NCBI GenBank assembly: GCA_964016885.1
Contig: OZ024740.1
Location: 408,394,001 to 408,458,000, forward strand
Length of the DNA stretch: 64,000 nucleotides
Reading direction: 5' to 3'
From: Eledone cirrhosa
Taxonomy: Eukaryota
In this document: positions 1-59,074 of the stretch, in pieces
Layout: each line of letters begins with the position of its first letter
How positions within the stretch are numbered: position 1 is the stretch's first letter
Notes under the pieces: model-generated
The model's input: only the letters and a program-made list of their open reading frames with translations
What the model was told of the DNA's origin: nothing
Database searches by the model: none
Position numbers and translations under genes: made by a program

Positions 1-2144
1 ATAAAAGCAGCTGCGAAATAACAGAATATATCTGGAGTGGAAAACGCAAGTGACATGTGATATCAGGTAGTGAAAAAAATGGGGAAGTAAAATGTGGAAT
101 GTGAAGATATTAGGTAAGTGAATCAAAAAGTAGGGGGGGGTTCACTGGTGGATGTGAAGTAAAAATAAAAATAAAATTAAAAATGAAAGTAAATCAGAAA
201 GAGAAGTCTGTAAAGAGGATAATTTAAGGAAAGTGAAGAACAAGAGTTTATGGAGGATAAGTATCTGAAAGTGAGTTAAGTTTATATGAGCTGGAAAGCA
301 AGTTAAATTTCGCTAGAAAGTTTATCAATATTTCTGATATTGAAGAGAATGTCATCTTGCATGCTAGAAACACTCTACTTTTTACTAATAATGACACTTG
401 GGTAAAAAAAATCTAACCCAGAGAACCCATTCGATGTCTCAATGGGTTCTTTTGACAGTGCTGATGTTTGTGATTTAGTCGGCTTATTCCTCCTACACAC
501 ACTTAAAGAGAAATTCCCTAACCATATTTTTGGGCTTTACCGCGACGATGGTCTAATACTTTCCCATACCACCATAGGCCATAACTTAGATAGATAAAGG
601 AAAGACTTAATAAAAACCTTCGCTAGTTTTAATCTTAAAATTACTATTGACACTAACCTTTCCAATGTTAATTTTCTAGATATAAACGTAGATCTGCCTA
701 CTGCTTCTTATAAACGATACCATAAACCTAATGAAAATTTAAAATATATAAATAAAGGCTCGTGCCATCCTCCTATAGTTTTTAAAAACCTTATCCCTAA
801 TATTAGCCGTAGGATCTCCACCCTCTCTTCCTCAGAAGCTATTTTCAATAAGGCATCCCCCTACTATAATAAAGCCCTTCAAAATAGCGGATTTAGCGAA
901 CCGATTAAGTACATACCCAACAATACTAACTCCTTTAAACATAATAATAGGAAAAGAAAAATAATCTGATTCACACACTCCTACTCTTTAGCAGTTAAAA
1001 CTAATGTAGGCAAAAAATTCCTAGAGTTCTTAGATAAACATTCCCCTAGAACACATAGATACTATAAGATCTTCAATAGAAACTGTGTCAAAATTAGCTA
1101 CTCCTGCGGTCACCCTATTAAATCTTATATCATCAATAAGAAAACACACGGAGAACATCAAAATTGCTCCTGTAGAGTCAAAAGTGAATGCCCATTACAA
1201 GGTAAATGCAACACCAAAGCCATTGTATATGCGGCTAAAGTGACAACCATCAGCAACAACCTACCAGCCACCAGCGAACGATATGTGGGTAGAACACAGA
1301 CAAATTCAAAACGCGTTATTACTCACATGTCGCATCTTTCCAACATCCAGAAAAAAGATTTACAACAGTTCTGGCTAGCAGAATATGGGATTTGAAAGAC
1401 CAAGGTATCCAATATAAATTGGATTGGTCAATTTTGAACCAATCTAAAGAATATGCAAGACGAATAAGAAGATGCGCACTCTGCATAAGTGAAAAATATT
1501 GGATTTTACAGAACCTTAAATCACCAAAAACCTGCCTAAACGCAAAAACAGAAATTTTCACCAGTTGCCCACACATGAAATCACACTTGCTTTCCAGCTC
1601 ATATAAACTTAACTCACTTTCAGATACTTAACTCACTTTCAGATACTTAACTCACTTTCAGATACTTAACTCACTTTCACTATCCTCCATAAACTCTTGT
1701 TCTTCACTTTCCTTAAATTATCCTCTTTACAGACTTCTCTTTCTGATTTACTTTCATTTTTAATTTTATTTTTATTTTTACTTCACATCCACCAGTGAAC
1801 CTCCCCTCTACTTTTTGATTCACTTACCTAATATCTTCACATTCCACATTTTACTTCCCCATTTTTTTCACTACCTGATACCACTTGTCACTTGCGTTTT
1901 CCACTCCAGATATATTCTGTTGTTTCGCAGCTGCTTTTATATTTGTACTCATTTATTCATACGGCTGGTTTATAATTTGTATCTATGTGTGTTTTTATAT
2001 CTATGTTTTTACATACTTATTTATACGTGTATGTGTGTGTGGGTGAATGTACGTGTATATGTATGTATATATGTGTATGTATGGGTGTGTATTTCATTTC
2101 ATTTTACGTCCGCTTTTTCCTTGCTTGCAAGGGTGGGACGGGAA

Positions 2145-15903: not shown

Positions 15904-16213
15904 AACGGGATCTTCTGAAACTAACAAAGTCAATCTGTGAACGCAGAAGTGAATATTTCAAAAAACGTTGCAACCGGAAGAAGACAGGAAGACGATACTT
16001 TGCAACGTGTTTTGAAATATTCACTTCTGCGTTCACAGATTGACTTTATTAGTTTCAGAAGATCCCGTTAAGGGTGAAAGCAACGATTCTTTGCTTAAAC
16101 TTTAATCTGTTATTTTAATAAATATTTGCTCTTCGGTTCTTATATATTTGACATATATTTATCCTTATCGAGCCCTCTTTGGATTTTAGTCTCCAAATTT
16201 ATTATTATTACTA
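15904..16213 (+). mobile_element. Non-coding PLE-like 3' fragment (CAGAAGA-hammerhead family), copy 1, with 5' inversion
   Basis: 15904-15973 is an inverted copy of 16001-16069. The body is nearly identical to 58530-58723 and to parts of 23425-23590. Confidence 0.75.
16051..16101 (+). ncRNA. Candidate type I hammerhead, non-canonical CAGAAGA core
   Basis: AGTTT-CAGAAGA-t-CCC gttaa GGG-t-GAAA-GCAA cgattct TTGC-TT-AAACT. All three stems close correctly around the core. Confidence 0.58.
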
Positions 16214-16541
16214 TCCACCCGATCCACACCACCCCGTTCTATGTAAAGTTATGTTGGTGCCGCGCCATCGAGGCCGAAACAAATGAGATCGTGTAGGTGT
16301 CACGACAAAAAAACACACAGTCCACGCTGTAATGTGGCCGTGTAGGCAACACGGTAAAAACCTCCCAGACCCACACTGTAAATGTGGTTGGTGTTAGGAA
16401 GGGCATCCAACTGTAGAAAACCTGCCAGACAGTCCTATGCGAGCAAGACAATCACTCTTGCCTCAAGTGGGACTACCCCCGTCCAAACCCATGCAAGCGT
16501 GGAACACGGACGTTAAACGCTGATGATGATGATGATGATGA

Positions 16542-23395: not shown

Positions 23396-23424
23396 AAGAT
23401 CGCCCTCCTATATATATATATATA

Positions 23425-23584
23425 TAGTAATAATAATAAATTTGAAGACTAAAATCCAAAGAGGGCTCGATAAGGATAAATATATATCAAATATATAAGA
23501 ACCGTAGAGCAAATATTTATTTCAGAAGATCCCGTTGAGGGTGAAAGCAACGATTCTTTGCTTAAACTTTAATCTGTTATTTTA

Positions 23585-23590
<6 letters not shown>
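23425..23590 (+). mobile_element. CAGAAGA-hammerhead family, copy 2 (inverted 3' tail plus forward hammerhead)
   Basis: About 23425-23519 is the reverse complement of the family 3' tail. 23520-23568 is the hammerhead-like motif. (TA)n flanks both sides. Confidence 0.72.
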
Positions 23591-23624
<34 letters not shown>

Positions 23625-39626: not shown

Positions 39627-39706
39627 ATATATATATTTATAGGTTTCTCTGCCATGACTGAATTATAGCTATCAACATAGTCAAGGTATGTCAGGCATCA
39701 ACTTAT

Positions 39707-39766
39707 TTTATCTGATGAGGACGAACTGTTGAAATAGCTCAGTATCTCTGAAATATGTATAATAAA
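39707..39766 (+). ncRNA. Minimal type I hammerhead ribozyme
   Basis: TTTAT-CTGATGA-stem II (gga..actg/cagt..tct)-GAAA-tatgta-TA-ATAAA. Stem III ATATGTAT is near-palindromic. Confidence 0.65.
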
Positions 39767-39864
39767 TTATATTTGATCACATGAATGTCTATATTTATTA
39801 ATATTTTGAAGTAATATTATATATATATATATATATATATTAGTCTTCAAATTTATTATTATTA

Positions 39865-40084: not shown

Positions 40085-42157
40085 ATATATATATATATAT
40101 ATATATTAGCCAGAAATAGAAGCAATTACACCCCATCAAAAGGTAGAAATAAAATCCTGGACGAATTCTGTGAACACATCACAAACTTCCCTTACCAACA
40201 CTTGCACAGACAAAAACACAAGCCAAACCTCAACAAGAAAGAATGGGAAGAATTAAATAGATTAAAAACCGACAGAACCATTACAATTAAAGAGGCTGAT
40301 AAAGGGAGTACAGTAGTCCTAATGGAGACAGAATTCTATATCAACTTAGCGCTCTCCACTTTGGAAAACGAAACATACTACGAAAAGGCTGAACACTACA
40401 ATCAACAGAAAATTATGAGAAACCTAAAAACTCTGATCAACCAATACAAAGAAGGACTCACTAACAAGGAATTCAGCTTCATCACAGACTTAACAAGTAA
40501 ATCCAGCCTTTTCTACGGTATCCCTAAAGTACATAAAAGTGAATTAATAAGTAAGGCATGCAAGGAAGCCACAGACATAGTCATCAATGTCCCCTCACCC
40601 AATGATCTCAAATTAAGACCTATAATAGCAGGCCCCACTTGCGAAACCCACTGCCTTAGCAACTTCATTGATACTTTTCTCAACATCAAAAGCTATATAA
40701 GGGACGACCTAGATATGCTCAATCACCTCCCTAATATGCCACTTTCTGAACAAACCCTACTAGTGACGTTCGATGTAGTCAACCTATACGCCAACATCCC
40801 CCACAACCTAGGAATAGAACCTATCCAATTCTGGCTGGATAATTACTACAATGGACTCCCACAATGCATCAAAAAAGAATTTGTGATAGAGGGACTCAAA
40901 TTTATCTTGGAGAACAATTACTTCGTTTTCAATAACAAACCCTACAGGCAGAAATCTGGGACCGCTATGGGAACGAAAACAGCCCCCACTTATGCCAACC
41001 TAGTCATGGGATACCTGGAAATCATCCTCTACACTAAAGTCCTAAACAAATTTGGAAACACTCTCCACTTACACATAGAAAGGAACTGGAAGCGATATCT
41101 AGATGACTGCTTCATCCTTTGGCACAAAAACATCGAGAAACTTAAAGAATTTCACACCCTTATAAATGGGCTCAACACGAATATTAACTTCATGGTGGAA
41201 TACAGCCATCAACAACTCCCCTTCCTCAACATCCTCATTAAGATCCATAAAAACAAAATAGAAATAGATATATACTACAAGTCCACAGACTCCAAGCAAT
41301 ATCTTCCTTTCAACTCTTGCCACCCTAGACACGTTAAAATTAATATTCCCTACAACTTAACCAAGAGAATCTGTACTATAGTCTCCAATAAAAACACCTG
41401 CTACTTACGGCTACAAGAACTAAAGGACACACTCATAGGCAGGGACTACCCTGCATCACTAATTGACAATGGAATCCAACGTGCCCTAAAACTCAGTACC
41501 CAGGACCTTAGACACCCTAAAGTAAATCAACCGAAACTAAAAGCTCTTCCATACATCTCCACACACAACCCCCTCAACAATGAGGCCTTTGACACCATCC
41601 TCCAGAACATCCCTGTGTTGAAAAAGGACCACAGAATGAACCAAATCCTACGAACACACGATATCATAAAGAGCAAAAGACAATCTAAGTCAATGAAAAA
41701 CATCCTAACACATGCCAAAGTACTGCCAACAACAACAACGAAACCCACAGTAAACAAATGCGATAGACCCAACTGTGGCATTTGCATCAACCTAATAGAG
41801 GGTTCGGAATTCTATTTTAAAGAAGGACAACGTTTTATAGTAAAACACAATTTCACATGCGCATCAGGAAATCTAATATATGTATTAACTTGCTCAGGTT
41901 GTCGAGAACAATACATAGGCCAGACCAAAAACAGCCTCCGCCAACGCATGACTGTCCATAGATCCCAAATTAAAATACGGGAATACAGGAAAATACCACT
42001 GAGTGAACACATTGATACCTGTGCTGCCCAAAATCATCCCAACTTCAGAATCTTTCCCCTCTACAAATTTAAAGATAATGCCACCCACACCCAGCGCATC
42101 AGCAAGGAATCTTACTTTATTAACAAATACGGACCCCGTCTAAACACTTCTCCCTAA
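40049..42157 (+). CDS. Penelope-like (Neptune-type) reverse transcriptase plus GIY-YIG endonuclease, N-terminally truncated
   Basis: Open 702-aa frame with KEADKG, FYGIPKVHK, LRPII, TFDVVNLY, QKSGTAMG, WKRYLDDCF, SCHPRH, linker KCDRPNCGIC and NLIYVLTCSGCREQYIGQT..R...H..E..LN. The first ~20 aa come from a neighbouring element and (TA)n. Confidence 0.9.
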   Translation: MVHLVPYHISFVIYIYIYILARNRSNYTPSKGRNKILDEFCEHITNFPYQHLHRQKHKPNLNKKEWEELNRLKTDRTITIKEADKGSTVVLMETEFYINLALSTLENETYYEKAEHYNQQKIMRNLKTLINQYKEGLTNKEFSFITDLTSKSSLFYGIPKVHKSELISKACKEATDIVINVPSPNDLKLRPIIAGPTCETHCLSNFIDTFLNIKSYIRDDLDMLNHLPNMPLSEQTLLVTFDVVNLYANIPHNLGIEPIQFWLDNYYNGLPQCIKKEFVIEGLKFILENNYFVFNNKPYRQKSGTAMGTKTAPTYANLVMGYLEIILYTKVLNKFGNTLHLHIERNWKRYLDDCFILWHKNIEKLKEFHTLINGLNTNINFMVEYSHQQLPFLNILIKIHKNKIEIDIYYKSTDSKQYLPFNSCHPRHVKINIPYNLTKRICTIVSNKNTCYLRLQELKDTLIGRDYPASLIDNGIQRALKLSTQDLRHPKVNQPKLKALPYISTHNPLNNEAFDTILQNIPVLKKDHRMNQILRTHDIIKSKRQSKSMKNILTHAKVLPTTTTKPTVNKCDRPNCGICINLIEGSEFYFKEGQRFIVKHNFTCASGNLIYVLTCSGCREQYIGQTKNSLRQRMTVHRSQIKIREYRKIPLSEHIDTCAAQNHPNFRIFPLYKFKDNATHTQRISKESYFINKYGPRLNTSP

Positions 42158-57440: not shown

Positions 57441-57653
57441 ATATATAAAACCATATTTATTTTATTATACATATTTCAAGGGCAACCAAGGCAAATTATG
57501 GTGTGCTTTCATCAGATAAAATACAGATTTGTTATATAGTTTCCATTTATTAATATATTGTGCATTTACTCCACTAAACTGTTGAGTGCTTTATATCAGT
57601 TATAAAAATGTTTAAGCTTGTTGAATCCCAACAAATTAAATATAACCTCTGCA
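57441..57653 (+). mobile_element. PLE-like 3' fragment related to 45941-47148, with inverted hammerhead segment
   Basis: About 57441-57527 is inverted. 57534-57653 is homologous to the tail at 47035-47148. (TA)n flanks. Confidence 0.75.
57458..57523 (-). ncRNA. Minimal type I hammerhead ribozyme, canonical core
   Basis: Minus strand TATTTTAT-CTGATGA-aagcacacca..tggttgccctt-GAAA-tatgta-TA-ATAAAATA, with a perfect 8-bp stem I. Confidence 0.78.
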
Positions 57654-58020: not shown

Positions 58021-58121
58021 ATATATATATATATGTAAAAGGTAAACAGAAATAACAACACAACCAGTACAGTATATGGAAGGGATATATTAGGTTAATT
58101 TTTGATATACCAGAAAGAGAG

Positions 58122-58157
58122 TCTTTACGTTTCGGATGCTAGTCCTTCATCAGAAGA
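58122..58157 (-). ncRNA. Very compact (36 nt) type I hammerhead ribozyme
   Basis: Minus strand TCTT-CTGATGA-a-GGA ctagca TCC-GAAA-CG-TA-AAGA, with palindromic ACGT stem III and a GUA triplet. Confidence 0.8.
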
Positions 58158-58310
58158 AAGAATGAGAAATAATATAGACAGGCGGGTTGGAATTGGAAAA
58201 AATGTCTTTAGATAAAAATAACAGGTCCATTCATGTTGACATCTCTTGCAAAACTGTTGGTGCTGATATATATACATATACACGCACAATCACAAATATA
58301 TATATATATA

Positions 58311-58723
58311 TATTTATTAAAATAACAGATTAAAGTTTAAGCAAAGAATCGCTCTATGAACCACCTAATAGAATATTAGTCTACGACTTCTTTTATACCA
58401 TGAACGTGGTTTTGTCTTTGTGTGTAATTGTTTTTCAACGCTCCAAATAATGACGTATTATATTTGTTTTTTCCCGTTCTTTGCCAGGGAACGTTTCCAC
58501 GAACCAAAGTATCGTCATCCTGTCTTCCTCCAGTTGCAACGTTTTTTGAAATATTCACTTCTGCGTTCACAGATTGACTCTGTTAGTTTCAGAAGATCCC
58601 GTTAAGGGTGAAAGCAGCGATTCTTTGCTTAAACTTTAATCTGTTATTTTAATAAATATTTGATATATATTTATCCTTATCGAGCCCTCTTTGGATTTTA
58701 GTCTTCAAATTTATTATTATTAC
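58311..58723 (+). mobile_element. CAGAAGA-hammerhead family, copy 3 (longest), with 5' inversion
   Basis: 58311-58352 is an inverted copy of about 58617-58659. The hammerhead-like motif is at 58585-58635. (TA)n flanks. Confidence 0.75.
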
Positions 58724-59074
58724 TATATATATATATACGTGGTTGGTGTTAGGAAGGGCATCCAGCTGTAGAAAACCCGCCAAACAGTCCTATACGAGCA
58801 AGACAACCAATCTTGCCTCAAGTGGGAAAATTCCCGTCCAAACCCATGCTAGCGTGGAAGATGGATGTTAAACGATGATGATGATAATGATATATATATA
58901 TCCAGGTGACGCGATCAATCTGAAATTTCAGTTAATGTTTCAATGTTTTAAATACTACAGTATTCTAAACACTCTCTATTAATCTCTCTCTCTCCCTCCC
59001 TCTCTCTCTCTCTCTCCATCGTTTAAAGTCTATCTTCCACGCTAGCATACATATATATATATATATATATATAT

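What the first reader, a model, noticed from the sequence alone, without database searches (positions are those of the whole stretch)
16051..16101. Three-copy family with a non-canonical hammerhead core (CAGAAGA, U4 to A; U.U at 10.1-11.1; CUU triplet)
Seen: the motif (AG)TTT-CAGAAGA-tCCC..GGGt-GAAA-GCAR..TTGC-TT-AAACT occurs at 16051, 23520 and 58585, with stems I, II and III in correct hammerhead topology. All three independent insertions have A where the conserved core has U4, so this is the family consensus and not post-insertion decay. Differences between copies fall in loop II or keep pairing (GCAA versus GCAG against TTGC). Inference: this is a natural hammerhead variant that standard CUGANGA searches would miss, in a recently mobile family whose parent is not in the window.
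Basis: partly seen in the sequence, partly recalled or inferred. Interest (0 to 1): 0.78.

Follow-up and report, generated by a model that had tools for sequence, protein, structure and literature searches.

The report
Hammerhead ribozyme with rule-breaking core base
These three short repeats are tail pieces of a very abundant jumping gene whose self-cutting-RNA (hammerhead) motif carries A at a core position that is almost always U; the motif's shape has been kept intact across three subfamilies, so it likely still does a job, probably slow self-cutting, though cutting is untested.

Summary
Confirmed. The three copies are truncated 3' ends (pLTRs) of a Hydra-clade Penelope-like retrotransposon; intact 709-aa RT/GIY-YIG parents exist elsewhere in the genome. 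A at core position 4 is the family state: 19,819 exact matches against 90 U and 117 C/G. It is also the state of two older subfamilies. Between subfamilies, 0 of 55 stem and core columns change, against 8 of 20 loop and 17 of 79 flank columns; the only core change is at N7, the free position. So the fold is under selection and is not a decaying relic. Relatives keep U4 (46 of 47 motifs), so A4 is derived. U10.1·U11.1 and U17 are ordinary in this clade; only U4A is new to my searches. Cleavage is not shown: U-turn mutants are weak in vitro, no RNA data were found, and copy 5' ends do not pile up at the cut site. The window copies themselves are probably inert. Best reading: an attenuated or protein-assisted hammerhead (0.5); main rival: a non-cutting fold kept for binding the element's protein (0.3). 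New variant of a known kind.

The parts
16000..16214 (+). Copy 1: 5'-truncated pLTR with the whole hammerhead motif and the longer 3' tail
   Evidence: 95% to a parent pLTR
16035..16110 (+). Copy 1 extended hammerhead: distal stem I 16035-43, bulge, proximal stem I 16051-55, core CAGAAGA 16056-62 (A4 = 16057), stem II 16063-75, GAAA 16076-79, stem III to 16095, U17 = 16096 (predicted cut after it), stem I 3' strand 16097-16110
   Evidence: cut site predicted from hammerhead numbering
15904..16002 (-). Inverted partial piece of copy 1, complementary to the 5' half of its motif
23520..23592 (+). Copy 2: pLTR piece starting inside stem I (C3 = 23523), ending at the short 3' end before (TA)n
23424..23521 (-). 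Inverted tail piece of copy 2
58352..58730 (+). Copy 3: longer 3' UTR/pLTR piece; motif 58569-58644, C3 = 58590, predicted cut after 58630; 22-base deletion in the tail
58310..58353 (-). Inverted partial piece of copy 3, between (TA)n and the direct piece

Best explanation
The motif is the type I hammerhead in the terminal repeat of a Hydra-clade Penelope-like retrotransposon, in a lineage that fixed A at core position 4 and kept the fold; it likely still cuts its own RNA after CUU, but probably slowly or only with the element's protein bound. Shown: the parent element, the position of the motif about 0.9 kb behind the ORF and 29 and about 112 bases before the two 3' ends, A4 in all three subfamilies, U4 in relatives, and unchanged stems and core while loops and flanks diverged. 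Inferred: that the constraint is on the hammerhead fold; that a bulge in stem I contacts loop II as in full-length hammerheads; that weak cleavage suits an element whose reverse transcriptase must copy through an uncut motif. Untested: cleavage, its rate, protein dependence, expression. The three window copies are probably inert by-products.
For: Selection pattern: 0 of 41 stem and 0 of 14 core columns differ among subfamily majorities, against 8 of 20 loop, 17 of 79 near-flank and 33 of 79 far-flank columns (Fisher p 6e-5 against the near flank; 0 of 36 and p 9e-4 for columns outside the search patterns). The one core change is N7 (A or U). 40 old copies picked by their upstream sequence alone give the same majority at core and stem columns. 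G5, A6, G8, A9, G12, A13, A14, A15.1 and U16.1 are all kept. A model of canonical relatives finds the motif. Predicted folding cost of the hammerhead state (4.2-4.5 kcal/mol) is like that of relatives (median 4.8). Precedent: natural U4C lowers activity in vitro yet suffices in vivo in a viroid (PMC3088659); a Penelope hammerhead cleaves only with its protein (PMC11167929).
Against: In one hammerhead all single mutants of the CUGA turn had low activity (PMC9901934). No covariation: the stems are invariant, not compensated. B and C differ by only 2 of 79 near-flank columns, so the test rests mostly on one long branch. For the core alone, no change is only marginally unlikely under neutrality (about 0.8^13 = 0.05, my estimate). 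No excess of copy 5' ends at the cut site (452 against 638 at a control site). With upstream sequence included, the young subfamily is predicted to prefer a helix that buries the core, and A4 strengthens it (6.8 against 4.4 kcal/mol). CUU was seen in 0 of 47 related motifs.
Confidence: 0.5

Rival explanations
1. The motif no longer cuts. Its fold is kept because the element's RT/endonuclease binds it or uses it to place the two reverse-transcription start sites just downstream.
For: Hammerhead-dead mutants of a Penelope element insert normally in vitro and uncut RNA is the main template (PMC11167929). Naiad elements thrive without canonical hammerheads (PMC8557442). U-turn mutants are weak. 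No junction excess at the cut site. Conserved blocks also lie just outside the motif, around the short 3' end.
Against: All other catalytic-core bases, including G8 and G12, are unchanged and only N7 varies, the pattern expected of a working core, though core-only statistics are weak.
Confidence: 0.3
2. The motif is a fully active hammerhead in which tertiary contacts or a second-site change compensate for the lost uridine.
For: Long bulged stem I and stable stem III would allow a monomeric full-length fold. Perreault et al. suggest tertiary contacts offset core variants. In subfamilies B and C, A4 is predicted to remove a short misfolding hairpin, worth 1.4-1.8 kcal/mol at 37 C.
Against: Pairwise mutagenesis found no rescue of U-turn mutants within two changes in another hammerhead. 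U4 is kept in 46 of 47 related motifs and in all Hydra rows of the published table.
Confidence: 0.1
3. The motif is a dead, unselected relic: one founder mutation carried along by successful master copies, with apparent conservation due to chance, ascertainment or an overlapping DNA-level signal.
For: A founder effect explains A4 in 20,000 young copies. Subfamilies B and C were first found with patterns covering the core and stem II.
Against: Stems I and III, outside those patterns, are also unchanged (0 of 36); the upstream-anchored sample agrees; changes fall in the bulge and loops inside the same 76 bases, which a DNA-level signal would not predict.
Confidence: 0.1

Closest known systems
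Hammerheads of Hydra-clade Penelope-like elements (Craig et al. 2021, PMC8557442; File S2)
   Same: Type I motif near the 3' end behind an RT/GIY-YIG ORF; short stem II closed by U·U; U17 in several families; (TA)n targets; tandem and inverted copies.
   Different: All tabulated Hydra cores read CUGANGA; here CAGANGA. Stem III is longer with a 7-base non-palindromic loop and begins A-G, giving CUU. The published Hydra-1_Obim is a different family, with another ORF and another motif.
Penelope-like-element hammerhead variants (Cervera and de la Pena 2014, PMC4209133)
   Same: Motif in the pLTRs of Penelope-like elements, thousands of truncated genomic copies, core variants exist (U3-A8).
   Different: Those are mostly minimal, dimer-type motifs; this one has a full stem III. 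U3-A8 keeps a base pair; U4A has no known compensation. No A4 core in the text parts read or the one supplement file searched.
Natural core variants incl. viroid U4C and U10.1-U11.1 (Perreault et al. 2011, PMC3088659)
   Same: Position 4 has varied in nature before; U·U at the base of stem II is known and tolerated.
   Different: U4C is a pyrimidine swap in viroid variants; here a purine is fixed in a whole lineage over three subfamilies.
Protein-assisted hammerhead of the anole Poseidon element (Frangieh et al. 2024, PMC11167929)
   Same: Two 3' ends defining a tail downstream of the motif; insertion into AT-rich DNA; copies run through an uncut motif.
   Different: That core is canonical and was assayed; it is a different clade.

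Membership tests
Hammerhead ribozyme (type I) | Three helices around the core in type I order | tested here: met
   Stems of 5+8, 3 and 5 pairs; model of canonical relatives finds it. No covariation within the family.
Hammerhead ribozyme (type I) | C3-G8, G5, A6, A9, G12, A13, A14, A15.1-U16.1, H17 | tested here: met
   All present and unchanged in three subfamilies
Hammerhead ribozyme (type I) | U4 (uridine turn) | tested here: not met
   A in 19,819 of 20,026 matches; so not a canonical member, a variant by descent
Hammerhead ribozyme (type I) | Match to Rfam hammerhead models | tested here: not met
   No hit in the window or a parent pLTR, but none for a natural U4 copy either, so A4 is not the cause
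Hammerhead ribozyme (type I) | Stem I-loop II tertiary contact | tested here: inconclusive
   A bulge is placed suitably, but bulge and loop II sequences vary among subfamilies
Hammerhead ribozyme (type I) | Site-specific self-cleavage | not testable with these tools
   No RNA run listed; needs an assay
Penelope-like element, Hydra clade | Single ORF, RT with C-terminal GIY-YIG endonuclease | tested here: met
   709-aa ORF intact in 5 of 30 loci, YRDD at 346, YIGLT at 598; 857 homologues at E<=1e-20; no Pfam hit
Penelope-like element, Hydra clade | DKT, RWK-like motif, CxCx5C linker, no CCHH, late CxxC and CxH | tested here: met
   SDKT 114, RLRWRA 35 (R for K), CNCRNRADC 564, only CxxC at 662, CKH 690
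Penelope-like element, Hydra clade | pLTRs, tandem and inverted 5'-truncated copies, tail, (TA)n targets | tested here: met
   loose ends at two 3' positions followed by TA repeats
Penelope-like element, Hydra clade | Placement inside the clade in an RT tree with the published reference set | not tested
   Assignment rests on motifs and by-eye comparison with the published alignment

The most novel reading that the evidence does not exclude
A natural hammerhead that has dispensed with the uridine of its uridine turn and is still selected: either a working ribozyme with a new core geometry switched on by the element's own protein, or the first clear case of a hammerhead fold kept by a highly successful retrotransposon for a non-catalytic job. 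The bold version scored here is physiologically useful cleavage with A4.
Probability: 0.3. Interest if true: 0.7.

Novelty: new variant of a known kind. Interest (0 to 1): 0.5.

Why it matters
Hammerheads in Penelope-like elements are known, but what they do is open: they may process the RNA, be dispensable, or merely ride along (PMC8557442, PMC11167929). This lineage is a natural experiment: a core change expected to cripple cutting, fixed in a family that then made about 20,000 pieces, with the fold still conserved. One simple assay separates 'cutting matters, and U4 is not essential' from 'the fold matters, cutting does not'. It also shows that CUGANGA descriptors can miss whole families, which bears on reports that some clades lack hammerheads. 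The gain is for ribozyme and transposon specialists; it is not a new kind of system.

Tried and rejected
Rfam: no hammerhead hit at E<=5 in the window or on a U4 and an A4 copy; uninformative about A4. Plain folding of the short motifs: z-scores -0.06 to 0.74, no support either way. A hidden U4 subfamily: 13 of the first 100 hits of a loose U4 pattern belong to this family, but those fetched are fold-back junctions centred on the near-palindrome around position 4 (669 exact cases); 18 of 30 examined U4 loci lie at or just behind junctions; 10 of 11 old-type U4 loci likewise; 0 of 100 listed upstream-anchored old copies have U. Rejected. More divergent A4 families with changed stem II: none evident in the first 100 of 1,171 hits beyond subfamily C. 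Cut-site junction test: no excess; at least 6 of 30 inspected hits were internal indels, the control also holds small deletions, and the test is weak because active elements use uncut RNA. RNA evidence: no RNA holder listed; contigs of four runs show no alternative base at position 4 at a 3% threshold but cannot show expression or ends. Folding values for this family printed used a mis-registered stem II and were dropped in favour. Literature: 'hammerhead'+'U4A' 0 papers, 'CAGANGA' 0, octopus+Penelope+hammerhead nothing relevant beyond PMC8557442. Lunse et al. 2017 and two structural reviews were not held; the Perreault alignment file was not searchable as text; one supplement of PMC4209133 was not searched. 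These could hold an A4 example.

Full report
Observation. The motif is present at all three places. Copies 1 and 3 are complete; copy 2 begins inside stem I. Each has an inverted partial piece next to it and copies 2 and 3 sit in (TA)n. The window lies in a 3.0-Gb animal genome; its short repeats look octopod to me, which is recall and was not tested.

Family. An exact 29-base pattern gives 19,819 matches with A at position 4, 90 with U and 117 with C or G; reversed controls give 0. These are pieces, not insertions, since many insertions hold two. Of 30 U4 loci examined, 18 lie at or just behind junctions and 12 look like point mutants. The bases around position 4 form a near-palindrome, and fold-back junctions centred on it read U on one strand and A on the other (669 exact cases). 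No U4 subfamily was found.

Parent. Motif pairs about 3.3 kb apart flank an RT plus GIY-YIG ORF (13 regions fetched). Five of 30 ORF loci hold an intact 709-aa frame, all with A4 in the motifs detected, and they differ by 1.2-2.1%. The protein has the motifs that define the Hydra clade in Craig et al. 2021 (section 11 read; motif check). It is not the published octopus family Hydra-1_Obim. Copies end at two places, 29 and about 112 bases after the predicted cut, matching the tail that Frangieh et al. 2024 trace to two reverse-transcription starts (parts 1-2 of 4 read).

Homology and polarity. A covariance model from 24 hand-picked canonical motifs of metagenomic Hydra-like loci (strong covariation) ranks copies 1 and 3 first in the window; natural U4 copies of the family score 27.6 bits against 19.5. 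Of 78 related loci at about 40% protein identity, 52 gave a motif above my threshold and 26 did not; the 47 distinct motifs have U4 in 46, C4 in 1 and A4 in none; 18 have U10.1·U11.1; triplets are GUA 37, GUU 5, GUC 4, AUA 1. A sister family in the same genome (53% protein identity) has a U3-A8 core with U4. An abundant Neptune-like family here combines U4, U·U and CUU. So A4 is derived, and U·U and CUU occur with canonical cores.

Selection. Two older subfamilies differ in loop II: B (62 pattern hits, 53 with A4) and C (57 hits, 52 with A4, and U at N7). Column agreement among copies is 0.97, 0.88 and 0.86 for A, B and C (107, 22 and 36 copies with intact upstream sequence, out of 113, 50 and 55; the A sample favours best hits). 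Among the three majorities, variable columns are 0 of 41 in stems, 0 of 14 in the core, 1 of 1 at N7, 8 of 20 in loops and bulges, 17 of 79 in near flanks and 33 of 79 in far flanks (similar). Leaving out columns covered by the search patterns gives 0 of 36 (p 9e-4). Forty of 136 old copies chosen by upstream sequence only agree, apart from N7 (20 A, 18 U), a C/U tie in stem II that keeps pairing, and one column shifted by an extra U. Limits: no compensatory changes, B and C are close to each other, and conserved blocks also exist just outside the motif.

Activity. Not shown. Roberts et al. 2023 (passages) report low activity for CUGA-turn mutants with no rescue. Perreault et al. 2011 (parts 2-3 of 8 and passages) list natural core variants, note that U4C is weak in vitro but sufficient in vivo, and report U10.1-U11.1; no U4A in what I read. 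Cervera and de la Pena 2014 (parts 1-2 of 4) found low in vitro activity for metazoan Penelope hammerheads. Frangieh et al. found cleavage protein-dependent and not needed for insertion. Copy 5' junctions show no excess at the cut site. Folding models put the hammerhead state 4.2-4.5 kcal/mol above the ensemble, like relatives, and predict that A4 relieves a misfold in B and C but strengthens an inhibitory helix in A; these are predictions. Other papers opened for passages gave nothing on U4A.

The window copies. Copy 1's inverted piece is complementary to the 5' half of its own motif, copy 3's to the 3' half, and copy 2 lacks most of stem I, so read-through transcripts would probably not fold as hammerheads (inference). 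The biology lies in the full-length elements.

Verdict. A real, lineage-wide U4A hammerhead variant in a known setting, with sequence evidence of selection on the fold and no evidence yet of cleavage. Attenuated or protein-assisted ribozyme 0.5; non-cutting structural element 0.3; fully active 0.1; unselected relic 0.1. U4A was not found in my searches, but a key paper and alignment sets could not be seen. New variant of a known kind; interest 0.5.

Noticed in passing
window 406-1574 (+), inverted repeat 1-138 / 1803-1940: Broken ORF of another Hydra-type Penelope-like family, 40-43% identical to the parent protein.
   Followed up: partly
window 58119-58160 (-), 57459-57522 (-), 39705-39768 (+), 46961 (+) / 46040 (-), 2904 (+): Other hammerhead-like motifs, most with canonical CUGANGA cores, probably from other Penelope-like families; the one at 2904 reads CCGAUGA.
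   Followed up: no
L134-L146; 669 exact cases genome-wide: Fold-back inversion junctions cluster on the near-palindrome centred on core position 4 and create U4 look-alikes; a one-base micro-inversion there could also be how U4A arose, though a plain transversion looks the same.
   Followed up: partly
L134:459-2091 and L292-L311: Sister Hydra family (53% protein identity) with a U3-A8 core, GUC triplet and a very long stem II.
   Followed up: partly
L147-L151, L153: Abundant Neptune-like family (775-aa frame, DKG motif, upstream 476-aa frame) with a canonical dimer-type motif, U·U and CUU; about three quarters of the first 100 of 10,787 pattern hits.
   Followed up: partly
L160:2928, L170:1938, L229:1769, L201 (-), L215:2602: Core variants among metagenomic Penelope-like loci: one U4C with strong stems, two U3-A8, two G3-C8.
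   Followed up: no
window 40766-42094: Weak translated match to the parent protein (20%, E 7e-4), perhaps another old reverse transcriptase.
   Followed up: no
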